From the sequence record ON568341.1: a stretch of DNA of 64,000 bases; one strand, given 5' to 3'. This DNA is from Escherichia phage UE-S1. Both the position numbers and the translations under genes were made by a program. Shown here piece by piece: positions 13,713 to 54,285 of the stretch. The notes below the pieces were generated by a model, which saw only the letters and a program-made list of their open reading frames with translations, searched no databases and had not been told where the DNA came from. Each line of letters opens with the position of its first letter. Within the stretch, counting starts at the first letter, position 1.

Positions 13713-14137
13713 TGAGAGCGTATAATAAGATTTGTATTTTTGTATTTTTAGTTTGTGCATTCAATTCATTTGGATACTACTGCGTTGAAAACAACATTTC
13801 ATATGGTTTAAATCCGTTATGGTTTTCAATTGCCAATGTAGTTCAAATTGGTATTGCTGTCATGTCCGCACTTATGTTCTGTCCAATTGTCACGATAGAT
13901 AGTGAATATGAAAAGCTTGGATTTCTACGTGATACGGGAGATGAACCTTACAATAGATTGATCGTATTGTATCCATTTTTAATGATGTTAGGTATTAATA
14001 TTCAACTAGGTGCAACAACCAACAGTATTACATCAGCAGCCATTGCTGTATTTGCATTCACATTTTTAACGATTCACCGCTCTATAAGTCATTGGTACAT
14101 TGCAAAAATGGCAGAGGAAGGTACTCAAAATACTTGA
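13712..14137 (+). CDS. small multi-pass membrane protein
   Basis: Hydrophobic segments; ATG overlaps previous stop. Confidence 0.5.
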   Translation: MRAYNKICIFVFLVCAFNSFGYYCVENNISYGLNPLWFSIANVVQIGIAVMSALMFCPIVTIDSEYEKLGFLRDTGDEPYNRLIVLYPFLMMLGINIQLGATTNSITSAAIAVFAFTFLTIHRSISHWYIAKMAEEGTQNT

Positions 14138-14199
14138 CATAATTTAGTATTTTATATATAATTATTTCATAAAAAAAAAGAAATTTGAGTGAGGAACTT

Positions 14200-14451
14200 A
14201 TGAACATTGATAAGGTCAAAGAAATTAGTGCTGCACTAATTAAAAATGAAGAGGTTTGTGAAGAACTTCGCAGTACTATCAAATTTGAGTACGCGAGATT
14301 GCAAAGTATGCTTCAAGAATCTGAATGGGTAGTAACTAAATCTATCGAAGCAATCTATAAGGATATCGAATCCCTTTTCAACAAGAAAAGTAAGATTGAA
14401 TCTGATTCATACAATAAGCGTAAAGAATTAAATTCGGCACTCGGTATTTAA
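14200..14451 (+). CDS. hypothetical protein
   Basis: Track ORF (TTG at 14185) trimmed to ATG preceded by GAGTGAGGAA. Confidence 0.45.
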   Translation: MNIDKVKEISAALIKNEEVCEELRSTIKFEYARLQSMLQESEWVVTKSIEAIYKDIESLFNKKSKIESDSYNKRKELNSALGI

Positions 14452-14525
14452 AATTCATTTGACATAATAAAAAACATGGAGTACAATGTACTCCTAATTT
14501 AATTATAAGATAAAAGGAAATAGTT

Positions 14526-14795
14526 GTGAAATCTATTCTTGTAGCAGTTAATCTCATTGCTTCCCCATCTTTTAACTTCAAAAAAGTTGTTGCTGATAAT
14601 CTGAAGAAGATCTGCCCAAACGCTGAATTGACTTTTTGTGTGTTTGATTCAGAAAAAGTAACTAAAGTTGATTTGAACTATATTTTGAACGATGTACAAT
14701 GTATTTCAGGTGAAAGCAACTTAAAAGTTCTTCGTGAGATTGCAGACGATTATGATGACACTTTAGTAATTTCGGAGAAAATCCAAATCAAATGA
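14526..14795 (+). CDS. hypothetical protein (89 aa), GTG start
   Basis: Track ORF; AAAGGAAA upstream. Confidence 0.45.
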   Translation: MKSILVAVNLIASPSFNFKKVVADNLKKICPNAELTFCVFDSEKVTKVDLNYILNDVQCISGESNLKVLREIADDYDDTLVISEKIQIK

Positions 14796-15211
14796 TTAGA
14801 TTCATTCAGTACTTAATCATTAAATTTTTTGGCTGTTATACGATTGAAGGAAAAGCCACACTTGCACATAAAATTTTTGTAGCATTATGTACAGGTGATT
14901 ATGACGTATTGAATAAGTACTGTAAATCTCAAGCATGTATTGATATAATGGCACTTCGTATCTATGAGTGCCAGTTCTTTAGATACAATTTTTACAAGTA
15001 CAGATTTGATAAACAAGAATTTGATAGTTTTGAAATGTTAAAAAATTTATGTAACAATAAAAAGAATATGCATATATCAGAATTTGTTGCTTTGTATTTT
15101 TATTTAAAAAGTTCATTGTTTATGAACACGAGTAAACTTTTTGATACTAGATTTAATGTATTCGAAGGTAAAGAATTTTACATATATGATAAATTCTTAG
15201 ATAAGGTGTAA
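14792..15211 (+). CDS. hypothetical protein (139 aa)
   Basis: Track ORF, ATGA overlap with previous gene. Confidence 0.5.
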   Translation: MIRFIQYLIIKFFGCYTIEGKATLAHKIFVALCTGDYDVLNKYCKSQACIDIMALRIYECQFFRYNFYKYRFDKQEFDSFEMLKNLCNNKKNMHISEFVALYFYLKSSLFMNTSKLFDTRFNVFEGKEFYIYDKFLDKV

Positions 15212-15212
15212 T

Positions 15213-15710
15213 ATGACAACTGTTTATATTGATAAACGATTAAATTTGTTGATTACCGATTCTAGAGTTACATCAACTATACCACGAAACTTATTTGGTC
15301 TTTTTCCACTAAGACCAAAATATCAATATGGAGTTGTTAATCAAAAAACTTTATATGTACATGACCGTTTATTCAGTGCTAGTGGATCAGTAAGTGAAAT
15401 TGATAAAGTACTTAATTGGTTGATTAATAAAGTATCAATTATTCCTGACAGAAAATTAAGTTGTCATTGTATTTTACTTTCCAAAGATTATATCATTCAT
15501 TTGATTTTATCTAATGGTGAGTTTACTAAAAAACTTGAGTATCTACATAAAGACTACACATTCTTTATGGGAAGTGGTGGAGAATACATGATAGATGCAG
15601 CTATTCATGAAGAGTATACAACTTTATATGATAAAGTACTTAGAACTTTTATGGATGTGCATAATCATGATTGTTTCACCGATGATAATATTAATGTATA
15701 TCGTTTTTGA
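15213..15710 (+). CDS. hypothetical protein (165 aa)
   Basis: Track ORF. Confidence 0.5.
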   Translation: MTTVYIDKRLNLLITDSRVTSTIPRNLFGLFPLRPKYQYGVVNQKTLYVHDRLFSASGSVSEIDKVLNWLINKVSIIPDRKLSCHCILLSKDYIIHLILSNGEFTKKLEYLHKDYTFFMGSGGEYMIDAAIHEEYTTLYDKVLRTFMDVHNHDCFTDDNINVYRF

Positions 15711-15732
15711 TTTTTTTCATTAGGAGACGTAA

Positions 15733-16686
15733 TTGAAAAAACTAGATTTGAATGCAATTGCAGATGAAGTACTGGACGAATGTTTTTCTAATGAAGAAGT
15801 CAATACACTTGATGCATTAGATTCAGTACAAGATGAAGATAAAGTTCAAAGTAATTTCAAGTTTAATATTAGTCTTAAGCGTCCACATAATGTAACAAAT
15901 GAAGATCTAATCCGTGATATTCAAGCTGGTATCAATGTTAAGAAAAACACTGAACTATTAGTTCGTTATAATTATGGACTAATTGTTGATGTTGCAAGTA
16001 AATGCACGTGTTATATCCCATTTGAAGATAAGATATCATATGGTATTGAGGGATTCATGCGAGCACTAAAAACATTTGATCTTAGTAAGAATGTTAAGTT
16101 CGTTACATACGCATCTTCCAGCATTTATATGACAGTATACAATGAAAGTTCAGATGCCAATCATCTGGTACATTTTCCACGCTATATGAGTGTTAATAAG
16201 ATACAAGTTAAACGCTTTTGTCATGAATATGAGCGTAAGCACGGTTGTCGTCCAACACCTGAACTAATTTCAGAGGGGACGGGAATTGAAATTCAACATG
16301 TAAAGAATTGTTTGTTATTCCAAAGTGAATATACTGCATTGGATGCACCATTGGATGGTGTTTCGGATGGTACGTTAAGTGATATTCTTCATACATCTGA
16401 TTGCGATTACAATCTTAATGTTGATAGTATTCGTGCACCTTTGCGTTATGTCATTAATGATCTAACACATGAATTGAGTACGAAAGAACGTGAAATTATC
16501 CAGCGTGTTCATGGTTTAGGTGAATTTAATCCTGAATCACTTCGTGAAATTGCTGATAGTGGTTTTGTTGATGACAATGGCAAATGTGTTAAATCAAGAT
16601 CATCTGTACACCGTAAATATAGTGAAGCTATAAAAAAACTTAAGAAATTAGTACTTGAAAAAGGGTACGAATACGAAGATTTCTAA
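15733..16686 (+). CDS. sigma-70-family-like protein (regions 2 and 4 recognisable)
   Basis: LVRYNYGLIVDVASK...GIEGFMRALKTFD...VKFVTYASSSIYM resembles sigma region 2; C-terminal SLREIADS..KSRSSVHRKYSEAIKKLKKL resembles region 4.2; TTG start after AGGAG. Confidence 0.5.
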   Translation: MKKLDLNAIADEVLDECFSNEEVNTLDALDSVQDEDKVQSNFKFNISLKRPHNVTNEDLIRDIQAGINVKKNTELLVRYNYGLIVDVASKCTCYIPFEDKISYGIEGFMRALKTFDLSKNVKFVTYASSSIYMTVYNESSDANHLVHFPRYMSVNKIQVKRFCHEYERKHGCRPTPELISEGTGIEIQHVKNCLLFQSEYTALDAPLDGVSDGTLSDILHTSDCDYNLNVDSIRAPLRYVINDLTHELSTKEREIIQRVHGLGEFNPESLREIADSGFVDDNGKCVKSRSSVHRKYSEAIKKLKKLVLEKGYEYEDF

Positions 16687-16693
16687 AGAACAA

Positions 16694-16720
16694 GGGTTGA
16701 CTTAGGTCAACCCTTTTTTT
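16694..16720 (+). terminator. intrinsic terminator
   Basis: GGGTTGACC-TTAG-GTCAACCC hairpin plus T7 run. Confidence 0.7.
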
Positions 16721-17348
16721 ATGGGACAAATTATAAAGTTATGATATACTTATTATGTACAATCCTGTTGAATGCAGAAATGCATATAAATGAGAACCTG
16801 ATCCTATCGAAAATGTAGATGGCAGATGAGCAGTTCAACAGTGCGATGAGCAGAAGAAACCCGTCAGATGTGGGCATAGTTTGAACCCCTCACGGCAATG
16901 CGGCTCAATAAAGAACCATGTTAGGATAGCTGATGGTTCCTTGATAGACATATAAGGATAACACCTTACGAATTATCTAAGGGAGAGTACTCAAATTTTG
17001 TACAAGAAAGTTGCGTCCAAAATTTGAGTACTCACATTAAGTATTTGATTGCATAGATACTTAATGAAGATACACTATGTTTAAAAGTGTAGACCGTCAT
17101 ATGAAACTGAAGTAGAGAGAAACAGGATGACCCGCTTTCGCACTCGTTATGAGTAATCTTCAATGCAATAGCTCTGATACCATCAGCGTCAAATTTCCCT
17201 CCGCAGTGGGGGGAAGAAAAATCACCTCCTCAAATCCCGTCAATATTAAAAGTCCTTGACAGTTATTAATCATTCGCGTAGAATACGTAGTATTAGAAGC
17301 GAACAGACATCTCGAAGAGATGGATGATTAACTATTGAGGAATTTCCA

Positions 17349-19080: not shown

Positions 19081-19108
19081 TTGACATAAGATATCAGTAC
19101 TGTATAAT
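19081..19108 (+). promoter_or_regulatory. sigma-70-type promoter (TTGACA-16-TATAAT, TG-extended)
   Basis: TTGACATAAGATATCAGTACTGTATAAT. Confidence 0.6.
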
Positions 19109-24976: not shown

Positions 24977-25168
24977 ATGCTGATTTATAAATGTGATAAT
25001 ATTCGTGTTCTACAACATCCTTATCTTCAAATCTTTGATGTGCAGATGTTCATGGAAGGTGATAATCCGAGAACCTATGGACGTAAGTATGATTATTTCA
25101 CGGTCAAGCAGTGCAACAACATTGATGAAGTACGACGATTAGTACATGAACTCCAAAACAAAGGTTGA
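24977..25168 (+). CDS. hypothetical protein (63 aa)
   Basis: Track ORF ending inside terminator stem. Confidence 0.45.
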   Translation: MLIYKCDNIRVLQHPYLQIFDVQMFMEGDNPRTYGRKYDYFTVKQCNNIDEVRRLVHELQNKG

Positions 25169-27451: not shown

Positions 27452-27565
27452 TTTAACTTTGGGACAAACTTTTCTATAATGATATAATTTTCTTGTCTGA
27501 TTATTTAAATGACATGTTGAAGTATAAATATTATTGTAAAGTTATCTCTTATAGGAGTTATAAAA

Positions 27566-29322: not shown

Positions 29323-29358
29323 GTTATCATAGCTTTCCTAACTACAAAGGATGACGTG

Positions 29359-40626: not shown

Positions 40627-40665
40627 AATTTTTCTCCTTCATTCATTATACTGTATTTAATCCAA

Positions 40666-40693
40666 TTAAGAAAAGCTAGTATCAAGTACTGGC
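40666..40693 (-). terminator. inter-cassette hairpin plus T-run
   Basis: GCTAGTA-TCAAG-TACTGGC with T-rich tract on minus strand. Confidence 0.5.
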
Positions 40694-40704
40694 ATTTAAA
40701 AGAA

Positions 40705-41880
40705 TCAAATTGTCGGAAGTGGGAATTCTTTCATCACCGATGAACTGTTTGCTGCAATATTATCAGGAGATTTACCAGCGTAGTATAATTTATTATTAAT
40801 AAACATATATAGCGTTGCATCGTTCCCTGCTACAAGAGAATTACTTTTCTTAAAAATAACCCCTGGGGGTAAAATAGCTTCAACAAATGAACCTGATTCT
40901 CGTGTTGAATTGTTTGCCAATTGACCATTATTATTATAACCAGTACTATAAATTTTACCTGAACTATAATACACAAGACCACGTGTACTAATGTTTTCTA
41001 TACGAATGAATTCACTATCGTCCGGTACTGTAGTTGATAGAACTGGGTATAACTTATAAGCTGATGTTACATTATTATTACCCAATTGACCATAACCTTG
41101 AAAGCCTAGTGCATACATAGGACATGATTCTGGTGTACCTTTTGTTATAATACCAATATAATTCGAACTACAAAAAATATCCACTGCTTCTACAACATTT
41201 GTACCCTTATATTGAACCCAAGGAAATACATATGATTGTTGTTTGCCATTACCCAAAACACCGGAAGTTGTTGTACCTGTACGCCACATTGTATCATCAA
41301 GTTTAATAATCCAGTTAGCAGTTGTTATAGTTGAACAGAATTTTTTAACATTATCAACCAAGTATGTAAATTTATTATAATATGATGCAGTGTTTATTCC
41401 AAATTTAGCACCAGTATTGTCACCTAACAAATATAAACTATTATCTGTACCTAAAATCAAAACATAATCATGACCCACGTATATCTTTTTGATTTTTGAA
41501 ATACCAAATTGTGTAAAATAGCTGGTACATTCAGTGAATATTGTTACATGATTTGATGTATTATTACCTAGCCATTTATCTAAACCACTATAAAAGAACC
41601 TATCATCATTTGTGCGTATTAGACAAAAAGAATTATTTGTACTGCACCAGAAATCTTTGACATTACTATATATTTTTGTCCATTCAGTTACTTGATTAGT
41701 ATGACCTAAACCAAAAATTCCACCATTTTGTAGTCCCATAGCCCATATTGAACCATTTTTATCAAGAAGCATTGTGCATGTAAATGAATACCCACACGCT
41801 GGAGTAACTAATTTAACAAAATTGGGAATATATGGTAAAACTTTATTCCCATAATTCACCATTCTTCCAAAAGGTAACAT
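40705..41880 (-). CDS. RCC1-like beta-propeller protein with conserved MLPFGRM N-terminus (array member 8)
   Basis: MLPFGRMVNYGN; repeats GYGQLGNNN, NNNGQLANNS. Confidence 0.7.
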   Translation of the reverse strand: MLPFGRMVNYGNKVLPYIPNFVKLVTPACGYSFTCTMLLDKNGSIWAMGLQNGGIFGLGHTNQVTEWTKIYSNVKDFWCSTNNSFCLIRTNDDRFFYSGLDKWLGNNTSNHVTIFTECTSYFTQFGISKIKKIYVGHDYVLILGTDNSLYLLGDNTGAKFGINTASYYNKFTYLVDNVKKFCSTITTANWIIKLDDTMWRTGTTTSGVLGNGKQQSYVFPWVQYKGTNVVEAVDIFCSSNYIGIITKGTPESCPMYALGFQGYGQLGNNNVTSAYKLYPVLSTTVPDDSEFIRIENISTRGLVYYSSGKIYSTGYNNNGQLANNSTRESGSFVEAILPPGVIFKKSNSLVAGNDATLYMFINNKLYYAGKSPDNIAANSSSVMKEFPLPTI

Positions 41881-41916
41881 ATTCTCTCCTTATTCATTAT
41901 AATATATATTTAATAC

Positions 41917-41948
41917 AAATAATAATGCCAGTACTCAAATACTGGCAT
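41917..41948 (-). terminator. inter-cassette hairpin plus T-run
   Basis: ATGCCAGTA-CTCAA-ATACTGGCAT. Confidence 0.5.
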
Positions 41949-41953
41949 TATTA

Positions 41954-43144
41954 TTACAATTGTCTAGGTGTATCCAGAACATATCTATTTGTGCTAGGAC
42001 CGCCATCATCATAAGTTCCGGTTGAATATATATTTTTCATATCAGCAGTTAGAAATGTACGATACGAACCTCTATATATTTTTATTTTATCATACATATT
42101 ATATGTAATTTGTGCTGGCATTGGACATATAGTAAATCTTCCAATAGTCCCCACTGAACCTACCCCCAATGAGCCAGCATAACTACTCGCATTTAAACCA
42201 GTTGCATATACACCAGAACTCGTAACTAGTATACTAGATTGTGATGGGTATCCAGTATGAATTGAATACAAAGTTCCAGGTGGTAATGTCGTACTATTTC
42301 TCCCTAATACAGCAAGTGCCGAACTGGATGTGGTATTATTACCCCATGCACCATTACTTGCTAAACCACCAACTAGGAACTGACGTACACCCGTACTTGG
42401 ATTTTCCACCAAAGCACTGACTGAACCCATTGAGCATCCAGTGTATTGTAACGTTTTTGTGTATGTTGTACTTGGCTGATATAAAGTATATTCATTATAT
42501 AAAGTCCATGTAGTACTGGAACTTATACCGGATGTACCACCACCAATATATAAATTATTTTGTTTATCAAACAACATTACACAGTTATTTGTTGACATTA
42601 TTTGTGCAATATCAACATTAGGTGTTACTGCTTTTACAAATGAACCATCTGTTATTTGTTGAGTTTTTCCAGTACCATCAGCGAATTGTCTAGCCCCACT
42701 CCAACCAGTACTCCATATTGTATTATTATCCATTAAGAAAGTAAACCACGTAGTACCTGCATACATCTGTTTAATTGAAGTACTTGAACTTTGTTTGTAC
42801 AAATTTTCAATATATTGGTTATAACTTAAAAATGATGTAGTACTGGTTGGTAAACCAATATGACTACCAAATCCACAATAGAAATAATTTAAGTCATTAT
42901 CTTGAACTAACAAAGTTCCTTGTGTGATCCAGCAATCATTAACGTTTTCTCTAATTAATGTCCATGTTCTTAATGCAGTGTTGTTTCCTCTCCCAAACTG
43001 CCCAAAACTATTATTACCTCGTGCATATAGTTGACCATCAGTATAAAGTACAACAACATCAGTATCGGTTGTTAGTATTTTCTTAATTTGAAGTGGGATA
43101 GGTACAATATTCCCGTACTTAACCATTCTTGCAAAAGGTAACAT
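41954..43144 (-). CDS. conserved-N-terminus family protein, beta-propeller-like (array member 7)
   Basis: MLPFARMVKYGNIVP; G/S/T/N-rich with NSFGQFGRGNN repeat. Confidence 0.65.
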   Translation of the reverse strand: MLPFARMVKYGNIVPIPLQIKKILTTDTDVVVLYTDGQLYARGNNSFGQFGRGNNTALRTWTLIRENVNDCWITQGTLLVQDNDLNYFYCGFGSHIGLPTSTTSFLSYNQYIENLYKQSSSTSIKQMYAGTTWFTFLMDNNTIWSTGWSGARQFADGTGKTQQITDGSFVKAVTPNVDIAQIMSTNNCVMLFDKQNNLYIGGGTSGISSSTTWTLYNEYTLYQPSTTYTKTLQYTGCSMGSVSALVENPSTGVRQFLVGGLASNGAWGNNTTSSSALAVLGRNSTTLPPGTLYSIHTGYPSQSSILVTSSGVYATGLNASSYAGSLGVGSVGTIGRFTICPMPAQITYNMYDKIKIYRGSYRTFLTADMKNIYSTGTYDDGGPSTNRYVLDTPRQL

Positions 43145-43180
43145 ATTTTCCTCCTTTATTCATTATACTATATTTAATCA

Positions 43181-43208
43181 AAAAGAAAAGCCAGTATCAA
43201 GTACTGGC
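43181..43208 (-). terminator. inter-cassette hairpin plus T-run
   Basis: GCCAGTA-TCAAG-TACTGGC; minus strand followed by TTTTCTTTT. Confidence 0.55.
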
Positions 43209-43215
43209 CTATATT

Positions 43216-43953
43216 TTAGACTGAATTGTTAGGATAATATCTCCCCCTTCCCCATATTATTCGCACAGCACCACCACCAGCAGCCGTATAAGAAGAATTA
43301 TCCCATATACTACCACCACCACCATACCTCTTACCAGCACCACCACTACCAGCACCACCATTATATGAACCACCGTAGCTACCACCAATACCATTAGCAC
43401 CTTGAACAATGATACCAGTACCACCACCCGTACCAATGAACGAGGTACTATAGAATGTACCACCCCCACCGCCGCCACCAGCACCATTTTCACCAGTGAT
43501 TGCATCTCCGTTACCACCTTTACCAGTGTAGCCACCAGCACCACCACCAATGACTGCACCACCACTTACACCAGTGTTGCCACCATTACCACCACCATCA
43601 TTAATAGCGTTAGCAGCTTTTCCACCTAGTCCACCAACCGTATATGCACCAGTGAAGCTAACACATAGTTTTTCAGTTCCACGATATAAACCGTTTTCAA
43701 CTGCTGTAGTAGTGTTGGGATGTGTAAGAGAAACACTTAAGTACTCACCACCAGAAACCGGAATATTATTACGCCACGATAAGCCGCCACCAGCACCACG
43801 TTGACCACCCGGCGAAATAACACATACTGATATTTCGGTAACGCCAGCAGGAACTGTAAATTGTGTTGTTCCTATTGTCGTGATTAATTGTTCACCATGT
43901 GGCTTATATTCAATTTTATTCCCGAACTTAACCATTCTTCCAAAAGGTAACAT
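43216..43953 (-). CDS. conserved-N-terminus family protein with glycine-rich body (array member 6)
   Basis: MLPFGRMVKFGN then long GGxGG tracts. Confidence 0.65.
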   Translation of the reverse strand: MLPFGRMVKFGNKIEYKPHGEQLITTIGTTQFTVPAGVTEISVCVISPGGQRGAGGGLSWRNNIPVSGGEYLSVSLTHPNTTTAVENGLYRGTEKLCVSFTGAYTVGGLGGKAANAINDGGGNGGNTGVSGGAVIGGGAGGYTGKGGNGDAITGENGAGGGGGGGTFYSTSFIGTGGGTGIIVQGANGIGGSYGGSYNGGAGSGGAGKRYGGGGSIWDNSSYTAAGGGAVRIIWGRGRYYPNNSV

Positions 43954-43990
43954 AATTCCCTCCTTTATTTGTTATACTATATTTAATACA

Positions 43991-44018
43991 AAAAGAAAAG
44001 CCAGTACTCAGTACTGGC
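43991..44018 (-). terminator. inter-cassette hairpin plus T-run
   Basis: GCCAGTACT-CA-GTACTGGC. Confidence 0.55.
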
Positions 44019-44024
44019 ATAATG

Positions 44025-45167
44025 TCAATAAGTATCCCAAGGTAATGGTGTCTTCCTAAATCCATACCTGGTTGTGCTCGCACCATCACCAGCAATGTAT
44101 CTACCTATACCACATTGGTATAACTCTGTACTACTACATATAGCACCACCTATAGTACCACTACTCCACTGAATTATATTAGAATATGTTATTGGTAAAT
44201 CACTACATTTAGTATATACAGCAACGGTAGAAGCACCACTAATACCACCAAACATACTTCGCTTAGCACCAGTGTAATATATACCATCTGGACTCATAAA
44301 TGCAGAGGTGTAAGTTGTACTGCAATCCACTGGACTTCTTATTGTATTAAGATCGCCTGGATATGTTCTGACACCAAAGGTGTATACATTACCATCAGTT
44401 GTAATACCATTACCTAACTGCCCACTGTTTTGTCCACCACATGTAAGCAACGATGCAGAACCAGAAACAATTGCAGTAGCATTATACGAAGTGCCCATTG
44501 CAATAGAAGCACCAGACAATAGTTTTGGAGTAACAATAGCTGTTGTATTACCCTGGCCTAATTCACCATTTGTGTTTCGTCCCCATGCGTATATGGAAGT
44601 AGTATCCAACCTACATAGTACTGAACCATAACTAAACGTATATCGCATGTCAATTACCGCAGAAGGCAAATTAACCTTAGTTGCAACACTAATAACACCA
44701 CCAGTAACACCACTGTTTGCGTTCATGTTACGACCATATGCATATAAAGAACCATCTGAAGTTTTAATATGCATCATACCATCTGTACAATATAATGCAT
44801 CTATACTCTCCACCGCAACCGGACCCATACTGGTAGTTATATCGGTCCACCCAAGAGTAGTAGTACTAGAAATTAAGTTATTTCCTGCGTATAGTATTCT
44901 ATTATTATTAGTAACTACAACTGTATATCTGGCAGTAACACCAATTAATCGAACATCAGTATATATCTTAGACCACGCACCTAATGAATTGGTGTTTGCA
45001 TCCAAAAAGCCCAACTGCCCATCTGTATTGTATCCAATGCCCCATACATCACCTGCACTGTCCAATAACACTTCATGTGAAAATCCAATCTTAAAATCTT
45101 TTATTGTAGGAACTACCGGATCTGGTGCAATATTCCCGTACTTAACCATTCTAGTAAAAGGTAACAT
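44025..45167 (-). CDS. RCC1-like beta-propeller protein with conserved N-terminus (array member 5)
   Basis: MLPFTRMVKYGNIAP; repeats GYNTDGQLGF, GRNTNGELGQGN, GGQNSGQLGNG. Confidence 0.7.
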   Translation of the reverse strand: MLPFTRMVKYGNIAPDPVVPTIKDFKIGFSHEVLLDSAGDVWGIGYNTDGQLGFLDANTNSLGAWSKIYTDVRLIGVTARYTVVVTNNNRILYAGNNLISSTTTLGWTDITTSMGPVAVESIDALYCTDGMMHIKTSDGSLYAYGRNMNANSGVTGGVISVATKVNLPSAVIDMRYTFSYGSVLCRLDTTSIYAWGRNTNGELGQGNTTAIVTPKLLSGASIAMGTSYNATAIVSGSASLLTCGGQNSGQLGNGITTDGNVYTFGVRTYPGDLNTIRSPVDCSTTYTSAFMSPDGIYYTGAKRSMFGGISGASTVAVYTKCSDLPITYSNIIQWSSGTIGGAICSSTELYQCGIGRYIAGDGASTTRYGFRKTPLPWDTY

Positions 45168-45203
45168 AATTCCCTCCCTTATTCATTATAATATATTTAA
45201 TAC

Positions 45204-45234
45204 AAAAAAGAAAAGCCAGTACTTGAGTACTGGC
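45204..45234 (-). terminator. inter-cassette hairpin plus T-run
   Basis: GCCAGTACT-TG-AGTACTGGC. Confidence 0.55.
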
Positions 45235-45240
45235 ATTATG

Positions 45241-46350
45241 TTATTTTGGTAAATCAATTTTAGTAAAGACTGCAACATCCTCGCTTGCCCCAGGAATGGC
45301 GTAATACGATCCAGTACTATATACATCTCCGTCTTTGGTTAATATTGATGTTAAACCATCACTAAAAAGAACATCCCTAATCTCACTAACTTCAACGGGT
45401 AATTGTAAATTAGTAGCACTATATATTGCACCAGTTTGAGAATTGTTTAATCCCAAACCACGGTTCGCCCCAACACCCTTCTGATATGTACTAGTAATTA
45501 TCATTTGTGTAGCAGTATTTAAGGCAGGTGAATTCGTCATAAACAACGGAGAACTATTAGGCAAAGTACTTGCAGGAACTGCACGAAATGAAGTTGTATC
45601 TGAACTAAGAAAGTTTGGCGTTTGACCACATACGAAATATGATGTACCATTATAGTAATTAAATGCATTACCACCAATGACTGCATCGATTACACCAGAG
45701 CTACGTAATCCCCACGTGTTAATTTGTGTTCGGTTCCCCGTGCCATGCTGACCCCTGTCATTCCACCCAGAACTATATAACTTATTATCTAATGTAATAT
45801 ACATACTGTCATTTGCATTCGTCATTACTTTACGCACATTAGTAGCACATTGAGTTAATGTGTAAATTGATGATGAACCAATACCTAAAGCACCACGATA
45901 TCCATTAGCTCCTGCACCATAGAGTACTGAACTAGTGCTAAGTACAAATATTAAACCATACGAACATACAATATTAGCAATTTCACTCACTGGTATAGCA
46001 CTGGTAAACCAATTAGTTCTTTCAACTAATACTGTGCTGTAAGAAGTAGTTGTAGACGATGTGAACCAATATGTTTCCCCTGATGTCCATATAGTATTAT
46101 CATTTTTAATAATAACAAGTGCACGATCACCTACGAAAAAATTAGAAACATCTGCACTTACTAATATCCATGAAGATACCGTGTTTTTATTACCATTTCC
46201 AGATTCACCACCTTGATTTCTACCTATGTAATATAAATCATGTGAATCAGTTAATAAGAATTGACCCTGTGTAGATGCACCAACTTTAATTATATTTTTA
46301 GGACCAGGTACAATATTCCCATAATCAAACATTCTTACAAAAGGTAACAT
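45241..46350 (-). CDS. RCC1-like beta-propeller protein with conserved N-terminus (array member 4)
   Basis: Track ORF to 46365; start moved to internal ATG (MLPFVRMFDYGNIVP) with GGAG 9 nt upstream. Confidence 0.65.
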   Translation of the reverse strand: MLPFVRMFDYGNIVPGPKNIIKVGASTQGQFLLTDSHDLYYIGRNQGGESGNGNKNTVSSWILVSADVSNFFVGDRALVIIKNDNTIWTSGETYWFTSSTTTSYSTVLVERTNWFTSAIPVSEIANIVCSYGLIFVLSTSSVLYGAGANGYRGALGIGSSSIYTLTQCATNVRKVMTNANDSMYITLDNKLYSSGWNDRGQHGTGNRTQINTWGLRSSGVIDAVIGGNAFNYYNGTSYFVCGQTPNFLSSDTTSFRAVPASTLPNSSPLFMTNSPALNTATQMIITSTYQKGVGANRGLGLNNSQTGAIYSATNLQLPVEVSEIRDVLFSDGLTSILTKDGDVYSTGSYYAIPGASEDVAVFTKIDLPK

Positions 46351-46387
46351 AACTAAAATCTCCATATAATAATTATAATGTATTTAC

Positions 46388-46420
46388 AAAAAAATACCAG
46401 CACATATTTCAGTACTGGTA
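46388..46420 (-). terminator. inter-cassette hairpin plus T-run
   Basis: TACCAG..AGTACTGGTA stem with T7 on minus strand. Confidence 0.5.
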
Positions 46421-46425
46421 TAATG

Positions 46426-47607
46426 TTATGGTAAAATAATAGCTTGTAACGAACTCATACCCAATGTTGGAACACTCGCCTGTGGTGCTGGAGAATTCAA
46501 TTTTGGTGATGAAACCGCATATGACATTCCTGAACCCAAATCTGGATCAAAAACTACAGCACAATAATTCCCACTATATATAAGTCCATTCTTGTATCCT
46601 TGTGCACTTTGAATGCATTTCGTGAACGTACCAATATCTGTAGTGGCATTTATTAAGTTCCTCCCACGATAACCGCAGGTGTATATGAAATTATCATCGC
46701 CTATGTACATACTAGAATCCCCAGAAGAACTACATAGATACGACATATAAGCACGCATGTTTTTAGGAGCAACTGACAATGTACCTGCATAGAATTTATT
46801 ATTCGAACCCGTAATATTACCATCACCCAATGCACCAAAACTTCCCCAGCCAGTACCGTAATATCTCTTATCACTCAAAAATATAATACAGTTGTTATTA
46901 CACATCTTGATTTGATATATCAATGAAGGATCAATCCCAGGGAATGATTCAGTGAATGTTAGAACAGCCGGATCAGTACTAGCATTACATTGATGATATG
47001 TATTAGTACCAGCGGACAAGATTGTTCCATTAGCTAACAGAATTCTCGCAGTACCAGTACCAGCAGTACAAGCAACTGCACTTCCTGCACTTCCGGTGTA
47101 TATTTGTCTGAAAGTAAAGAAACCAACAGTTTTACTTCCCTGCCCACTCCAACCAGTATTATCAACTCCACACGCCCATACTGAACCATCTTGCATGATC
47201 ATCATTACACCAAAGCGTTCTATTGAAATATAAACAATCTTCGTTGTATCAACTGCACTAAATCTAGAAGTTATATCAGTCCATACCTTAACACTTACCG
47301 CCGTCGCACTGGAAGTAGGATCTTCACCAGCTATCATTATCCTCCCATTGTTAGTAAGATACATTGTCTGACTATAACCAGTACTACAAAACTTAACACT
47401 ATCAGTCTCTGGAACTTTTAACCACTCGTTGTAACGTGTTACGTTAGTGTTATTACCTAACTGATAATAGTTATTCATCCCAGATACATATAACACACCA
47501 TCCTTTATTAAACTATAAGTCGCACTATAGTCACTACAGGTATAACGTGTACCCACAGGTGGCTCAACGACGTTCCCGTACTTAACCATTCTCCCAAAAG
47601 GTAACAT
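46426..47607 (-). CDS. RCC1-like beta-propeller protein with conserved N-terminus (array member 3)
   Basis: MLPFGRMVKYGNVVEP; repeats NNYYQLGNN, DNTGWSGQGS, GSFGALGDGN. Confidence 0.7.
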   Translation of the reverse strand: MLPFGRMVKYGNVVEPPVGTRYTCSDYSATYSLIKDGVLYVSGMNNYYQLGNNTNVTRYNEWLKVPETDSVKFCSTGYSQTMYLTNNGRIMIAGEDPTSSATAVSVKVWTDITSRFSAVDTTKIVYISIERFGVMMIMQDGSVWACGVDNTGWSGQGSKTVGFFTFRQIYTGSAGSAVACTAGTGTARILLANGTILSAGTNTYHQCNASTDPAVLTFTESFPGIDPSLIYQIKMCNNNCIIFLSDKRYYGTGWGSFGALGDGNITGSNNKFYAGTLSVAPKNMRAYMSYLCSSSGDSSMYIGDDNFIYTCGYRGRNLINATTDIGTFTKCIQSAQGYKNGLIYSGNYCAVVFDPDLGSGMSYAVSSPKLNSPAPQASVPTLGMSSLQAIILP

Positions 47608-47642
47608 AATAAAATCTCCGTAATTAAATTATATAGTATTTA

Positions 47643-47676
47643 CAAAAAATACCAGTACATATTTCAGTACTGACCT
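47643..47676 (-). terminator. inter-cassette hairpin plus T-run
   Basis: CAGTAC-loop-GTACTG palindrome with T-run. Confidence 0.5.
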
Positions 47677-47680
47677 ATTA

Positions 47681-48802
47681 TTAAAAGGGCAACGGTAACT
47701 CAGTAAAAGTACTTACGTCCGGTAAACCATACATTAAATTAGCATCACCACAGTAATACCACTTCGTAGAATCATGTACCACCGATAAACGCTGTGCACA
47801 TAACACTTCCTGTATGTCATTAAACACCATCGGGACTAACTCATATGTATCTGCAAATGAAGATTCACTACCACTCGCATGAAAAGTATTTGTCCCAGCA
47901 TAAAATAACTGATTAGTGTTCTTACCCACAGCAAATGTTATCAAAACCCCATCATTCTCCCATAAAGAAGAAAACTTATCAACACTACCAGAAAGCTCTG
48001 TGTAAGTACTCGTAATGGCACTCGCCGCCGCCGCATTACCCATCTGTTTATTCAAGTTCTGTCCAGCAATAAAATATCTCGTTCGTGCACTAGAATCAGT
48101 ATATAATAACCCAGTGTTCGTAGTCATCATTCCAATGTCCTTAATCGTCATATCAGTCTGTGAATAACTTAGATACGAAGTTAAATTAACATTATTACCC
48201 AACGAACCGTTAGAACTCATGCCACAACGATGTAATATACCACTTGTATCAACGTAGATAGTACTAACTAAACTCGTATACAACTCTTGTACATTATTCG
48301 CAATAAACACAGCAGTCGCCTTATTACTAACCCCACCAAATGATAGGTTATTATCAAATCCCTTAGCGTATAATTGATTATTAGTAGTCAATAATCCAAT
48401 CGTGTAATAAGACATTTTCATATCCCTTACTGTACTCAAATCTACTGCCCCAAATTGATACGTAACATCTGTCCATTTGAAAATCTGTGCACTACCAACA
48501 CCACCCGTTTCAAACCATTTGTCACCACAGTACAATATGCGATTATCCTTAGTAAAGATAACTGTTAACAATCCACTACCACACGCAAACTTTACATCAC
48601 TTCTAACCTTCGTCCAATCAAGTACATAGGTAGTGGTGTTATTACCTATACCTAACTTGCCATAACGGTTATAACCACGCACCCATAAATCACCACTCTT
48701 AGTAATTAATAGTAATGCGTCTCCTGTACTTATTATTCGAAATCCCGAACTAGGATCAGGGGCAATATTCCCGTACTTAACCATTCTCCCAAAAGGTAAC
48801 AT
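47681..48802 (-). CDS. RCC1-like beta-propeller protein with conserved N-terminus (array member 2)
   Basis: MLPFGRMVKYGNIAPDP; repeats GYNRYGKLGIGNN, SSNGSLGNN. Confidence 0.7.
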   Translation of the reverse strand: MLPFGRMVKYGNIAPDPSSGFRIISTGDALLLITKSGDLWVRGYNRYGKLGIGNNTTTYVLDWTKVRSDVKFACGSGLLTVIFTKDNRILYCGDKWFETGGVGSAQIFKWTDVTYQFGAVDLSTVRDMKMSYYTIGLLTTNNQLYAKGFDNNLSFGGVSNKATAVFIANNVQELYTSLVSTIYVDTSGILHRCGMSSNGSLGNNVNLTSYLSYSQTDMTIKDIGMMTTNTGLLYTDSSARTRYFIAGQNLNKQMGNAAAASAITSTYTELSGSVDKFSSLWENDGVLITFAVGKNTNQLFYAGTNTFHASGSESSFADTYELVPMVFNDIQEVLCAQRLSVVHDSTKWYYCGDANLMYGLPDVSTFTELPLPF

Positions 48803-48837
48803 ATTTTCCTCCTTTATTCATTATACTATATTTAATA

Positions 48838-48869
48838 CAAAAAGAAATGCCAGTATCAAGTACTGGCAT
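48838..48869 (-). terminator. inter-cassette hairpin plus T-run
   Basis: ATGCCAGTA-TCAAG-TACTGGCAT. Confidence 0.55.
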
Positions 48870-48875
48870 ATTAAT

Positions 48876-50024
48876 TCATTGTATAAATGACATATCTACT
48901 TCTGTATAATTAAGAACGTTCTGTCCAGAAATACCACCCATTACTACTATTGCAAGGCCACAATAATATAATTTTCCAGTATCCGTAAGTATAAGTGATC
49001 CAGATGGACTGCGTACCAAATCACACGAACTATTAAAAGAAGTATAAGAAGGAGTATAGGAGTACTGATTATTATTATTACCAACACCTAATTGCCCAAA
49101 CCCATTCGATCCAGAAGCATATAGAACTTCATCTGCTTTGACAATATGTGATGCCATGTTACCAACACAAGTATATAGAGTATAAACTCCTGAACTCAAT
49201 AATGTCGGAGTTTTATATTGTATATCTGTAGATGTAGAAGTACCACCTGTACCAAATTCGTTCCCATATTGTGCACCGAACTGTTTGCCACAAGCGTACA
49301 AATTATTATCCGATTTGATAAAAAATGTACTCTGATAACTTACATTAAAATCTATAACATCCGAAGAAATCATCGTCACCCCAGTAATAGAAGTTTGATT
49401 ACCCGTGCCCAACTGGTAGTAATAGTTAAAACCACAACCCCATAAAGTATTATCTTCTCGCAAATAAATGTTACCAACTGCCTTTTTAACCGAAGTTATA
49501 GTATCTACTCTTTTGAATGTGTTAAAAGAATTAATGTTTGTACCATCACCAAATGATGATATGTTCGATATATTGTTAACTCCACAACAATACAATGTAC
49601 CATCTTTTGTTATCAAATTCACCTTCATATCATAAAAACTACTCATGTATTTTATATCAGAAACATTAACACCACTTGATGTTATCCACGTAGTACAGTC
49701 CGTCCACAAAGTTTTTCTATCAGTTACACCAGTGAATGCCTTCGTGTTACCAGTGATAAAAACTTTTCCAGTACCTTTCTCTTCATACAATTGACAATCA
49801 CTACTGTTATCTTCCAATAGAACTCGTTTAACATTCTCCGCACAAAGAATAAATTTACTCGATGCTACACCTGTACCAGTACCCCAATTCGTCGCAGAAG
49901 ATGCATACAACTTATCAGTATAAGTATCATGAAGATACATAGAATCACTGGAATATATTTTAAAACGCCCTTCTTTCTCAGGTATAATATTCCCGTACTT
50001 AACCATTCTCCCAAAAGGTAACAT
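48876..50024 (-). CDS. RCC1-like beta-propeller protein with conserved N-terminus (array member 1, most upstream)
   Basis: MLPFGRMVKYGNIIPE; repeats GFNYYYQLGTGN, GSNGFGQLGVGNN. Confidence 0.7.
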   Translation of the reverse strand: MLPFGRMVKYGNIIPEKEGRFKIYSSDSMYLHDTYTDKLYASSATNWGTGTGVASSKFILCAENVKRVLLEDNSSDCQLYEEKGTGKVFITGNTKAFTGVTDRKTLWTDCTTWITSSGVNVSDIKYMSSFYDMKVNLITKDGTLYCCGVNNISNISSFGDGTNINSFNTFKRVDTITSVKKAVGNIYLREDNTLWGCGFNYYYQLGTGNQTSITGVTMISSDVIDFNVSYQSTFFIKSDNNLYACGKQFGAQYGNEFGTGGTSTSTDIQYKTPTLLSSGVYTLYTCVGNMASHIVKADEVLYASGSNGFGQLGVGNNNNQYSYTPSYTSFNSSCDLVRSPSGSLILTDTGKLYYCGLAIVVMGGISGQNVLNYTEVDMSFIQ

Positions 50025-50066
50025 ATTCCCTCCTTATTCATTATATCATATTTACCCAAAAAACAC

Positions 50067-53598: not shown

Positions 53599-54285
53599 TT
53601 AAACACATATAGACAGGGGAAGCTCCGTAGTGGAAGCATTATACAGGCTTTAACATATGTTGCATATGTTAAAATTCAGCCTGGACAAATGCGATCACTA
53701 GGATTCTCCCCAGGCTAAACCCCGTAACTCTACAGAGAAGCCAATAGCTTCTCTTTGTCATAGGTAGTCATAAGTAATCATATATAAACATTTAAGTAAT
53801 CATTCATACGCACGGTAGTGATTAGTATTGAGTACTAGAGTACAGGAATGTTCACGTTTAATCAAGAACGTAGCAGTACTGCCCCAAAAGTATTCAGTAC
53901 TGAAGGTGTCGATATCCCACTAAGTAGGCAGAGGAAGTCTGCCGTACTTTGTAGTTTCCAAGCTCCTTTTCCATTTTTCAAATTACATCAAATGTATTCA
54001 AAAGTAATCACGTAATGATTAGTACTGAATTATTACTTTCACCTTAATTCCAAATACTCTTTTACCCTTCGGGGAAAATCCCATTACCCCTTGAGGCTCC
54101 AGCAAAAAGTTGGAAAGTACTCCATCGTAAATCTGGATCGTAAAAATTTTGGAGTACCTATGAAATAAAAGTTGGATCTTCGAAAGTTGAAATTTACGTT
54201 GGGACATATAGGATTGATGGGATATAATGAGTTTTGTAGAGATACAGATTATACGATTTCAGTACTGAATAATGAAAGAAAGCTA

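What the first reader, a model, noticed from the sequence alone, without database searches (positions are those of the whole stretch)
15733..16686. Phage-encoded sigma-70-family-like protein
The ORF has blocks resembling sigma region 2 (GLIVDVASK..GIEGFMRALKTFD..VKFVTYA) and region 4.2 (helix-turn-helix SLREIADS..SRSSVHRKYSEAIKKL). A full sigma factor in a phage that otherwise uses host-like TTGACA/TATAAT promoters would imply a second promoter class, perhaps the divergent TATAATGAATAA elements before the minus-strand genes.
Basis: inference. Interest (0 to 1): 0.6.

Follow-up and report, generated by a model that had tools for sequence, protein, structure and literature searches.

The report
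Jumbo-phage sigma factor, already annotated

Summary
ORF 15733-16686 (+, 317 aa, TTG start) passes the curated cut-offs for Pfam Sigma70_r2 and r3 and for NCBIfam TIGR02937. It matches PHROG 351 at 2e-53 and folds like sigmaS/sigmaA.

It is 100% identical to the annotated sigma factor of Escherichia phage UE-S1 and orthologous to 121Q gp167. [quoted passage not shown] The gene itself is therefore already known, but no experiment on its promoter specificity turned up.

The gene ends an early operon driven by perfect host-type promoters. Three promoter classes exist in the relative 121Q:
- E: TTGACA-N16-17-TATAAT.
- M: GRGACA-N14-TGnTATAAT, before replication genes and the gp55-like late sigma gene.
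- L: ATAAATA.

I infer, at about 50%, that this sigma reads class M. Its -35 recognition helix co-varies with the M-box across four phage clades. The clade also carries a conserved 7-residue hairpin insertion in the region 4.2 helix-turn-helix and lacks the tryptophan dyad of region 2.

In passing: directly downstream lies one copy of an unannotated, multi-copy, roughly 450-nt structured RNA with strong covariation and no Rfam match.

The parts
14134..14162 (+). Perfect host-type (class E) promoter TTGACA-N17-TATAAT. It is the nearest consensus promoter upstream of the sigma gene.
14459..14487 (+). Second class E promoter, TTGACA-N17-TACAAT, inside the same transcription unit.
14200..15710 (+). 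Four co-oriented, tightly packed upstream ORFs (83, 89, 139 and 165 aa) of unknown function. The last one (15213-15710) is weakly HslV-like. No terminator-like site is followed by a clean T-run between them and the sigma gene, apart from a hairpin at 14478-14494 with a poor tail.
15722..15727 (+). Shine-Dalgarno AGGAGA, 5 nt before the TTG start.
15733..16686 (+). Sigma-70-family sigma factor gene (317 aa). It is identical to the annotated sigma of Escherichia phage UE-S1 and is the orthologue of 121Q gp167.
15958..16143 (+). Sigma2 domain (aa 76-137). It has the core-binding 2.2 motif DK(I/V)(S/Q)YG and the -10 pocket motif F..TYA, but Ser-Ser where sigma70 has W433/W434.
16204..16398 (+). 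Sigma3 domain (aa 158-222).
16321..16437 (+). Acidic region 3.2 linker, the 'sigma finger' (aa 197-235; net charge -7). It aligns with the region 3.2 linker of the solved RpoD chain 7ye1_F (isletpigdeedshlgdfie).
16438..16662 (+). Sigma4 domain (aa 236-310), modelled at pLDDT 77-89.
16567..16587 (+). Clade-specific 7-residue insertion (VDDNGKC, aa 279-285) in the turn of the region 4.2 helix-turn-helix. It is predicted to form a beta-hairpin. Every sequence alignment to bacterial sigmas stops just before it.
16692..16720 (+). Intrinsic terminator (10-bp stem plus T-run) that ends the early operon 6 nt after the sigma stop codon.
16723..16750 (+). Class M promoter GGGACA-N14-GATATACT. It is the candidate target class of this sigma and heads the gene-free stretch downstream.
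   Evidence: 121Q counterpart
16760..17290 (+). One copy of a multi-copy structured non-coding RNA of about 450 nt, behind the class M promoter (side finding).
27461..27488 (+). Class M promoter GGGACA-N14-GATATAAT. The orthologous site in 121Q is at 101440.
54201..54228 (+). Class M promoter GGGACA-N14-GATATAAT, heading a gene-free stretch of about 0.9 kb. The orthologous site in 121Q is at 135737.
40639..50054 (-). There are nine leaders of the form hairpin, TAAATA-N3-4-TATAAT(GAATAA), Shine-Dalgarno, one before each RCC1-like paralogue. They are late-type (class L) boxes, not the sigma-70-like protein's likely target.

Best explanation
What it is (near certain): a phage-encoded member of the sigma-70 family. 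It has sigma2, sigma3, a region 3.2 finger and a sigma4 domain, and it belongs to the clade found in RaK2/121Q/GAP32-like ('group 2') jumbo phages. How it is expressed (shown by sequence layout): it is the last gene of an early operon. That operon is driven by consensus host sigma70 promoters and closed by an intrinsic terminator, so the unmodified host holoenzyme makes it right after infection. What it does (inferred, about 50%): it binds host core RNA polymerase in place of sigma70 and directs it to the phage's 'middle' promoter class. In this genus that class reads GRGACA, then 14 nt, then (T)GnTATAAT. Class M promoters precede the replication and nucleotide-metabolism genes, the gene for the second (gp55-like) phage sigma, and a family of structured RNAs. 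The result would be a three-step cascade: host sigma70 reads early genes including this sigma; the phage sigma-70-like factor reads middle genes including the gp55-like sigma; the gp55-like sigma reads ATAAATA late promoters. The altered -35 reading would come from the changed recognition helix of region 4.2. By my manual alignment the E. coli positions read R584 kept, E585S, R586S, R588H, Q589R. The conserved beta-hairpin inserted in the helix-turn-helix turn may also contribute.
For: Identity. The exact protein is annotated as a sigma factor, and orthologues are annotated in 121Q, PBECO4, RaK2, GAP32 and CBB. Residues matching the sigma70 region 2.2 core-binding segment (D99; Q in most clade members), the A-11 pocket (F115, F123, T125, Y126, A127) and the region 3.2 motif are conserved across the clade. 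Early expression: E promoters at 14134 and 14459, the terminator at 16692, and 10 perfect E promoters in the window, all on the + strand. CBB's orthologue also sits in the early region. Class M is real: in 121Q, GRGACA-N14-GnTATAAT occurs 15 times on the + strand, 0 times on the - strand, against 0.05 expected. A looser form gives 28 against 0. The sites lie before ssb, primase, exonuclease, topoisomerase II, the DNA polymerase operon and the late sigma gene gp591. An M promoter also precedes the gp55-like sigma in 7t3 and in CBB. Class L is accounted for by the gp55-like sigma. That leaves M as the class without a dedicated reader. Co-variation: Asteriusvirus and the 7t3/fENko clade share the helix pattern R-x-x-x-H-R, and both use GGGACA, although their sigmas are only about 37% identical. 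RaK2 (43% identical, helix R...H-Y) uses (T)TGAACA. Mimasvirus and Eneladusvirus (helix K...S-R) use TGAAAC.
Against: No experiment exists for any member. Class M promoters carry a perfect extended -10 (TGnTATAAT) plus GACA, so host sigma70 should read them unaided. The phage sigma lacks the sigma70 residues that read -12 and the TG (Q437M, T440Y, H455Y, E458V) and lacks the W433/W434 dyad. That fits poorly with a canonical TATAAT target. The mapping of the recognition helix onto sigma70 is manual: phmmer, hhalign and Pfam all stop before the insertion. The co-variation rests on four clades, which are not phylogenetically independent. A separate MotA-like activator co-evolving with the box would give the same pattern. 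RaK2's box (TTGAAC) is close to a normal -35.
Confidence: 0.5

Rival explanations
1. The protein is a general surrogate for host sigma70. It reads the same early and extended -10 promoters as sigma70. Its role would be to keep phage transcription going when host sigma70 is scarce, sequestered or inactivated, for example in stationary-phase hosts or after a phage anti-sigma acts. Its changed region 4 and hairpin would make it immune to factors that target sigma70 region 4.
For: The best profile matches are to RpoD and RpoS types and to solved sigmaS and sigmaA structures. E and M boxes differ in only two bases of the -35 element, and both classes carry TATAAT. RaK2's M-type box, TTGAAC, is nearly a normal -35. 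Region 4 is the most diverged part and is the usual target of anti-sigmas such as AsiA (established knowledge; Iyer et al. list AsiA homologues in group 2 phages).
Against: Nearly all sigma70 residues that contact -12, the TG and the -35 bases are replaced. E and M boxes form two discrete classes with different genomic distributions, not a continuum. The M-box changes between clades along with the recognition helix.
Confidence: 0.22
2. The sigma-70-like protein reads the TATAATGAATAA elements before the minus-strand genes, using TATAAT as a -10 element with no -35 element.
For: The element is under selection. The RCC1-like paralogues are only 18-27% identical as proteins, yet their leaders are nearly identical. 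It contains a perfect TATAAT.
Against: It is confined to one paralogue array plus 121Q gp155. A terminator hairpin occupies the -35 position. A start site 7 nt after the TATAAT would fall on the Shine-Dalgarno sequence. The conserved unit is really TAAATA-N3-4-TATAA. This is the late-type box found before several 121Q virion and morphogenesis genes and resembles the ATAAATA motif before capsid and sheath genes. It matches the T4 late motif, for which a dedicated gp55-like sigma exists.
Confidence: 0.06
3. The protein reads a promoter class not recognised here, or it does not act as an initiation factor at all. In the second case it could be a decoy that titrates host core polymerase, an anti-sigma or another partner.
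For: It lacks the tryptophan dyad, which is needed in group 1-3 sigmas to hold the upstream edge of the bubble. Its helix-turn-helix is interrupted, and region 4 fails the Pfam cut-off. I ran no exhaustive de novo motif search.
Against: The A-11 pocket motif, the region 3.2 finger and the region 2.2 core-binding motif are conserved over about 20 clusters at 50% identity. That argues for a working initiation factor. The three classes E, M and L already sit before most of the intergenic gaps I inspected, though I did not tally this systematically.
Confidence: 0.2

Closest known systems
Annotated sigma factors of RaK2-like ('group 2') jumbo phages: Escherichia phage UE-S1, 121Q gp167, PBECO4, RaK2, GAP32_490, CBB_513
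   Same: 100% identical to the UE-S1 protein. It is 84-88% identical to the 121Q, ph0011 and PBECO4 proteins, in the same gene order. It is 33-44% identical to the RaK2, GAP32 and CBB proteins. All share the conserved N-terminal MKKLDL...LDECF motif and the helix-turn-helix insertion. [quoted passage not shown]
   Different: Nothing of substance; this is the same gene. None of these proteins has been tested experimentally.
Bacterial group 1 and group 2 sigmas (E. coli sigma70/RpoD and sigmaS/RpoS)
   Same: The same sigma2-sigma3-3.2-sigma4 domain order and fold. The region 2.2 core-binding motif, the A-11 pocket motif and the region 3.2 motif are conserved.
   Different: Scores are far below the equivalog cut-offs (78.6 against 354 bits for RpoD_Cterm; 67.5 against 378.7 for RpoS). 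There is no region 1.1 or 1.2 Pfam hit. By manual alignment: W433S, W434S, Q437M, T440Y, H455Y, E458V, and in region 4.2 E585S, R588H, Q589R. A 7-residue hairpin is inserted in the helix-turn-helix turn.
Bacillus phage SPO1 gp28 and gp33/34 sigma cascade
   Same: It works alike if the best explanation holds. An early gene transcribed by the host primary sigma encodes a phage sigma that redirects host core polymerase to middle promoters, and the middle genes include the late sigma (established knowledge; cited, PMC13401047).
   Different: The SPO1 sigmas are small and highly diverged, and I did not test homology to them. Here the late factor is of the T4 gp55 type.
T4 middle transcription (MotA/AsiA sigma appropriation) and T4 gp55 late sigma
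   Same: The same three promoter tiers: sigma70-type early; middle promoters that keep a sigma70-like -10 but have a replaced -35 box; late TATAAATA read by gp55. These phages have T4-like core genes and a gp55 homologue.
   Different: T4 remodels host sigma70 rather than encoding a sigma-70-like protein. Here a complete extra sigma is encoded. I did not search for MotA homologues. The CBB authors found no gp33 or gp45 homologues, whereas Iyer et al. report a gp33 orthologue in group 2 phages.
'Divergent RpoD-like promoters' of GAP32 and CBB (TGAAACG ... TATA)
   Same: This is the class M described here. In CBB it lies before DNA-synthesis genes and before the gp55-like gene. I found TGAAAC(C/G/A)-N15-GnTATAAT before the structured RNA in CBB, GAP32, XbC2 and Yen9-03.
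   Different: In Asteriusvirus and the 7t3 clade the box reads GRGACA, and in RaK2 it reads (T)TGAACA. The papers did not assign the class to the phage sigma.

Membership tests
Sigma-70 family (superfamily level) | Sigma2 domain (regions 2.1-2.4) | tested here: met
   Pfam PF04542, aa 76-137, 24.7 bits against a 24.0 cut-off. It aligns to solved sigma chains.
Sigma-70 family (superfamily level) | Curated superfamily model TIGR02937 | tested here: met
   47.5 bits against a 42.9 cut-off, aa 76-305.
Sigma-70 family (superfamily level) | Sigma4 domain with the region 4.2 helix-turn-helix | tested here: inconclusive
   Pfam PF04545 matches only aa 247-275, at 16.3 bits against 24.1. hhalign and phmmer stop at aa 273-278. 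Sigma4 alone finds no sigma in the PDB by sequence. AlphaFold gives helix, beta-hairpin, long helix at pLDDT 77-89. The rpoS_proteo and Thermus SigA alignments do run to aa 299-315.
Sigma-70 family (superfamily level) | Binds core RNA polymerase and confers promoter-specific initiation | not testable with these tools
   Indirect evidence only: conserved region 2.2 motif, region 3.2 finger motif and A-11 pocket motif.
Groups 1-3 rather than ECF (group 4) | Presence of a sigma3 domain | tested here: met
   Pfam PF04539, aa 158-222, 38 bits against 25.3.
Primary sigma RpoD (group 1) | Regions 1.1 and 1.2 and the equivalog score | tested here: not met
   No PF03979 or PF00140 hit at E up to 1. TIGR02393 scores 78.6 against 354, and the NF004208 and NF006666 models fall far below their cut-offs.
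Primary and group 2 sigmas | Invariant W433/W434 dyad and the Q437/T440 readers of position -12 (E. coli numbering, from my own knowledge) | tested here: not met
   Ser129 and Ser130, Met133, Tyr136. These positions vary across the whole phage clade.
RpoS | Equivalog score | tested here: not met
   TIGR02394 scores 67.5 against 378.7, and NF004207 scores 64.6 against 394.
T4 gp55-type late sigma | Membership of the gp55 family (PHROG 234) | tested here: not met
   This ORF hits only PHROG 351. The gp55-type protein is a different gene: 121Q gp591 and 7t3_0440.
Jumbo-phage (group 2) RpoD-like sigma clade | Full-length homology and conserved gene order with 121Q gp167, RaK2, GAP32 and CBB sigmas | tested here: met
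   About 20 clusters at 50% identity align end to end. All carry the insertion G-x-x-D-x-x-G before the recognition helix.

The most novel reading that the evidence does not exclude
This sigma belongs to a phage-only clade with an unusual build: a beta-hairpin inserted in the turn of the region 4.2 helix-turn-helix, and no tryptophan dyad. The clade has its own -35 code, GGGACA / TGAACA / TGAAAC, which changes along with helix residues R289, H293 and R294. It forms the middle tier of a three-sigma cascade that turns on replication genes, the gp55-like late sigma, and a so far undescribed multi-copy structured RNA of about 450 nt. One copy of that RNA sits directly behind the sigma gene. The RNA might act as an origin or primer RNA, or as a regulator.
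Probability: 0.4. Interest if true: 0.55.

Novelty: already known. Interest (0 to 1): 0.3.

Why it matters
The gene itself adds nothing new. It is annotated in this very phage, and reviews list it as a hallmark of jumbo phages that lack their own RNA polymerase.

What remains open is which promoters it reads. The analysis here turns that into a concrete experiment with a built-in specificity control:
- the three promoter classes;
- M promoters placed before the late-sigma gene in three clades;
- an M-box that tracks the recognition helix.

The experiment is core polymerase plus this protein on GRGACA against TTGACA templates, followed by helix swaps with the CBB-type protein.

If the assignment holds, these phages run a three-sigma cascade like that of SPO1 on a T4-like chassis. 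The sigma's interrupted helix-turn-helix would be an unusual way to read a -35 element.

The structured RNA next door may prove the more novel object and deserves its own follow-up.

Tried and rejected
1. TATAATGAATAA as this sigma's promoter. Rejected as unlikely: the motif is confined to one paralogue array and is part of the late-type TAAATA-N3-4-TATAA box.

2. Exceptional conservation of the post-sigma gene-free stretch as proof of function. It is 94-100% identical to 121Q, but so are neighbouring coding blocks because the genomes are mosaics, so identity to 121Q alone proves nothing. The case for an RNA rests on cross-genus conservation and covariation instead.

3. A known RNA family for that stretch. 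There is no Rfam match at gathering score, at E up to 1, or at E up to 10. I saw a resemblance to RNase P RNA motifs by eye, but no RNase P model scored, so I dropped it.

4. The four PA5oct ncRNAs as homologues. The paper reports no sequence similarity to anything outside phage MIJ3, and I established no link.

5. Sequence-based mapping of the recognition helix onto solved sigmas. phmmer with sigma4 alone found only spurious matches to designed repeat proteins, and hhalign stops at aa 273. The residue mapping in region 4.2 is therefore manual.

6. The search for related loci with the wide alignment A2 failed because no conserved stretch was available. With A1 it returned only 4 loci. Those loci lie in early regions and hold few M promoters.

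7. A neat one-residue-to-one-base -35 'code'. I weakened this after RaK2 showed a box (TTGAAC) close to the normal -35, with spacing that varies by 1 nt.

8. Functional clues from neighbouring genes. All are PHROGs of unknown function with no Pfam hits, except the HNH endonuclease and a weak HslV-like match.

9. A literature search for functional work on this sigma or for Asteriusvirus transcriptomes found nothing.
Full report
**The observation**

Window 15733-16686 (+) is an uninterrupted ORF of 317 codons. It starts at TTG, 5 nt after the Shine-Dalgarno AGGAGA, and ends at TAA 16684-16686.

- Pfam Sigma70_r2 at aa 76-137: 24.7 bits against a 24.0 cut-off.
- Pfam Sigma70_r3 at aa 158-222: 38 bits against 25.3.
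- A partial Sigma70_r4 match at aa 247-275: E 0.0068, below the cut-off.
- NCBIfam superfamily model TIGR02937, passed at 47.5 against 42.9 bits.
- RpoD, RpoS and SigB models at 1e-22 to 1e-17, all far below their equivalog cut-offs.
- PHROG 351 'RNA polymerase sigma factor' at 2.3e-53 over the whole length.
- Solved RpoD, SigA, SigB and RpoS chains at 5e-14 to 1e-9.

An AlphaFold2 model built on 15 homologues has mean pLDDT 66.8. The sigma2, sigma3 and sigma4 domains score about 75-89, and the linkers are disordered. Its best Foldseek matches are sigmaS and sigmaA inside holoenzyme structures (E 3e-10).

**What the window is, and whether the gene is known**

The window comes from a jumbo coliphage of the 121Q/PBECO4 type (Asteriusvirus-like).
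- The sigma gene is 83-86% identical in DNA, and 84-88% in protein, to annotated 'RNA polymerase sigma factor' genes of ph0011, 121Q (gp167), PBECO4, phAPEC6 and others, in the same gene order.
- Orthologues at 29-44% identity exist in RaK2/K64-1, the SE_PL/fENko-Kae01/7t3 group, GAP32, CBB, the Erwinia, Serratia and Yersinia phages, and XbC2.
- The protein is 100% identical to a GenBank entry named 'sigma-70 family RNA polymerase sigma factor [Escherichia phage UE-S1]'.
- Iyer et al. 2021 describe RpoD-like sigmas as a defining trait of 'group 2' jumbo phages, which lack their own RNA polymerase. [quoted passage not shown]
- I found no experimental work on promoter specificity and no Asteriusvirus transcriptome.

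As a gene, this is already known. As a mechanism, it is untested.

**Anatomy of the protein**

A profile search of 1.84 billion representative proteins gives about 20 clusters at 50% identity that align end to end. After those come ordinary bacterial sigmas, whose alignments all stop at aa 275-278.

Conserved across the phage clade:
- An acidic N-terminus with the motif MKKLDL..I..E.LDECF. Residues 1-50 carry net charge -6.
- The segment DK(I/V)(S/Q)YG, which aligns with the core-binding region 2.2 of sigma70 (DLIQEG).
- F..(T)YA, which aligns with the pocket that holds the flipped -11 adenine.
- An acidic region 3.2 linker, (L)D.P....D..L.D, with net charge -7.

Not conserved relative to sigma70 are the following. 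E. coli numbering is from my own knowledge of the sequence. It agrees to within one residue with the HMMER coordinates 70-274 to 373-577 for chain 4jk1_X; the residue offsets I used are 304 in region 2 and 303 near residue 274.
- W433 and W434 become Ser-Ser, and these positions vary across the clade.
- R436Y, Q437M, T440Y, R441N, H455Y and E458V.

In region 4.2 the first helix (SLREIADS) is followed by G-F-V-D-D-N-G-K-C-V, and only then by the recognition helix SRSSVHRKYSEAIKKL. AlphaFold predicts the extra residues as a beta-hairpin, with strands at 278-279 and 285-286 and pLDDT about 87.
- G277, D280, G283 and H293 are invariant among close homologues.
- G283 and R294 are more than 90% conserved across the wide clade.
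- By manual alignment the helix reads R584 kept, E585S, R586S, R588H and Q589R.
- This mapping is an inference. Pfam, phmmer and hhalign all stop before the insertion, and sigma4 alone finds no sigma in the PDB by sequence.

**Context and expression**

The sigma gene is the last of five tightly packed + strand genes.
- Upstream are a perfect TTGACA-N17-TATAAT promoter at 14134-14162 and a TTGACA-N17-TACAAT promoter at 14459-14487.
- Six bases after the stop codon comes a 10-bp hairpin with a T-run, at 16692-16720.
- The window holds 10 perfect consensus promoters, all on the + strand, against 0.42 expected.
- Neighbouring proteins are PHROGs of unknown function. The exceptions are a weak HslV-like match upstream and an HNH endonuclease downstream.

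The layout indicates that the unmodified host holoenzyme transcribes the gene early. The CBB authors reached the same view for CBB_513.

**Promoter classes**

I assembled the 348.5-kb genome of the annotated relative 121Q and found three classes.

- Class E is TTGACA-N16-17-TATAAT. There are 48 sites on the + strand and 1 on the - strand. They concentrate at 75-100 kb and 125-150 kb, among small early genes.
- Class M is G(G/A)GACA, then 14 nt, then G(A/C)TATAAT, usually preceded by T.
  - Counts: the strict form occurs 15 times on the + strand, 0 times on the - strand, against 0.05 expected. A looser form gives 28 against 0.
  - Enrichment: among NNGACA-N16-18-TATAAT combinations, GG and GA are enriched after TT.
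  - Locations: M sites precede ssb (two sites), primase, exonuclease, topoisomerase II, a nudix gene and the DNA polymerase operon. One lies 85 nt upstream of gp591.
- Class L is (T)ATAAATA. It lies before capsid, scaffold, sheath, tube and baseplate genes. The heptamer is strongly depleted genome-wide: 35 and 20 copies on the two strands, against about 132 expected per strand. That depletion fits a functional signal.
- gp591 is the gp55-type late sigma: PHROG 12791 at 3e-154 and PHROG 234 at 8e-18.

The CBB paper reports the same three classes for CBB and GAP32: RpoD-like; 'divergent RpoD-like' with TGAAACG plus TATA before DNA-synthesis genes and before the gp55-like gene; and ATAAATA.

The window itself carries M promoters at 16723-16750, 27461-27488 and 54201-54228.

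TATAATGAATAA is real, but it occurs only in the leaders of nine tandem minus-strand paralogues at 39481-50024. These genes are annotated in 121Q as RCC1-like.
- The proteins are only 18-27% identical, yet the leaders are nearly identical, so the leader is under selection.
- The conserved unit is hairpin, then TAAATA-N3-4-TATAAT(GAATAA), then the Shine-Dalgarno sequence.
- The same TAAATA-N3-4-TATAA composite precedes 121Q gp5, gp31, neck, tail tube, gp597 and gp569. In the window it also precedes the virion Ig-domain gene (9777-10931) and ORF 152-1849.

These are therefore late-type boxes. Their natural reader is the gp55-like sigma, not the sigma-70-like protein.

**Who reads class M?**

This step is inference.

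For the sigma-70-like protein:
- It is made early, as a middle-gene activator should be.
- Class L already has its own sigma, and class E is a consensus sigma70 class.
- M promoters precede the late-sigma gene in three clades: 121Q, 7t3 and CBB. That gives a coherent cascade.
- The M-box differs from E at the bases that region 4.2 reads, and it tracks the recognition helix rather than overall sigma similarity:
  - Asteriusvirus (helix SRSS[VI]HRKY) uses GRGACA.
  - The 7t3/fENko clade (helix SRTSLHRCY; sigma only about 37% identical) also uses GGGACA, with 7 sites in 40 kb.
  - RaK2 (helix VRGTLHYKF; 43% identical) uses (T)TGAACA.
  - Mimasvirus and Eneladusvirus (helix SKATLSRRY; about 33% identical) use TGAAAC.

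Against it:
- M promoters carry a textbook extended -10 element that host sigma70 should use without help.
- The phage sigma lacks the sigma70 residues that read -12 and the TG.
- Four related clades are few, and a co-evolving activator would mimic the pattern.
- RaK2's box is close to a normal -35 element.

I put the M assignment at about 0.5.

**A side finding next to the gene**

The 660-nt gene-free stretch after the terminator begins with an M promoter. It is one copy of a repeated non-coding element.
- 121Q has four copies, at 90.3, 192.8, 247.5 and 326.6 kb, each directly behind an M-type promoter.
- blastn finds 257 places in 61 phage records, 3-5 per genome, mostly with no annotation. 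Identity is about 70% between genera whose sigma proteins are only about 33% identical.
- A 12-sequence alignment from five groups (Asteriusvirus including the divergent EJP2, Mimasvirus, Eneladusvirus and phage 7t3) gives a consensus of 70 pairs in 13 helices.
- In that structure 96.5% of cells are paired, against 38-46% when partners are slid. 38 pairs show changes on both sides, against 8-12 for the slid controls. None of 500 shuffles reaches the observed values.
- No Rfam family matches, even at E up to 10, and I found no paper describing it.

Its function is unknown. A structured primer or origin RNA is one idea. This idea draws on T4 oriF and oriG, which use middle promoters, and on ColE1 RNA II, and rests on established knowledge only. 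A regulatory RNA is another.

**Verdict**

The finding is correct but ordinary: a known, annotated jumbo-phage sigma factor. This work adds a specific, testable target class, two clade-specific structural oddities of the sigma, and an unannotated structured RNA family beside it.

Noticed in passing
window 16716-17348 (core about 16760-17290); paralogues in 121Q at L003:40261-40882, L005:42844-43316, L006:47505-47923 and L008:26645-27060: An unannotated structured RNA family of about 450 nt, each copy behind a class M promoter. There are 3-5 copies per genome in 61 jumbo-phage records (257 places). Identity is about 70% at the nucleotide level across genera. The consensus has 13 helices with 96.5% of cells paired, against 38-46% for slid controls, and 38 pairs with compensatory changes. 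No Rfam match even at E up to 10.
   Followed up: partly
window, 53 sites, e.g. 19095-19102, 32042-32049, 55462-55469: The 8-bp palindrome CAGTACTG occurs 53 times against 0.75 expected. It is mostly intergenic. It often abuts the -10 element of early promoters (TTGACA...CAGTACTGTATAAT), lies inside terminator-like hairpins, or stands alone as ATTCAGTACTGAAT. It could be an operator, a modification site or a processing site.
   Followed up: partly
window 71-145 (+): A tRNA with an 8-nt anticodon loop (CUUCAUAA). ARAGORN calls a 4-base anticodon 'tcat', and the Rfam tRNA model scores 51.8 bits. It is not the counterpart of the 121Q tRNA-Gly that I compared it with, which I picked by approximate position. 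It might be a suppressor or frameshift-type tRNA.
   Followed up: partly
window 39481-50024 (-): A tandem array of nine paralogous genes of about 380 aa, annotated as RCC1-like in 121Q. All begin MLPF(G/A)RM. The proteins are only 18-27% identical, but the leaders (hairpin, late-type box, Shine-Dalgarno) are almost identical.
   Followed up: partly
window 25157-25194, 29300-29336, 33790-33827, 35074-35111: Repeated composite modules. A terminator hairpin (aaagggTTGACTtcggtcagccc + T-run) carries a TTGACT -35 hexamer in its stem and is followed at promoter spacing by G(C/T)TATAAT. This forms a back-to-back terminator and promoter.
   Followed up: no
window 54298-55217 (and 121Q 135194-137161): Another long gene-free stretch directly behind a class M promoter (window 54201-54228). 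It is dense in CAGTACTG sites, is not homologous to the RNA family above, and has no Rfam hit at gathering score.
   Followed up: no
window 15213-15710 (+): The ORF just upstream of the sigma gene starts MTTVYID and weakly matches the HslV peptidase family (PHROG 1040, E 6e-5). Its N-terminal Thr resembles that of Ntn hydrolases. It has no Pfam hit.
   Followed up: no
121Q genome (L002-L008): The late-promoter heptamer ATAAATA is strongly depleted genome-wide: 35 on the + strand and 20 on the - strand, against about 132 expected per strand. This suggests selection against stray late promoters.
   Followed up: no
window 17787-18575 (+); GAP32 locus L021:1150-1266: An HNH endonuclease gene lies close downstream of the sigma gene here and in 121Q. 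In GAP32 an HNH endonuclease immediately follows the sigma gene. The sigma neighbourhood seems to attract homing endonucleases.
   Followed up: no
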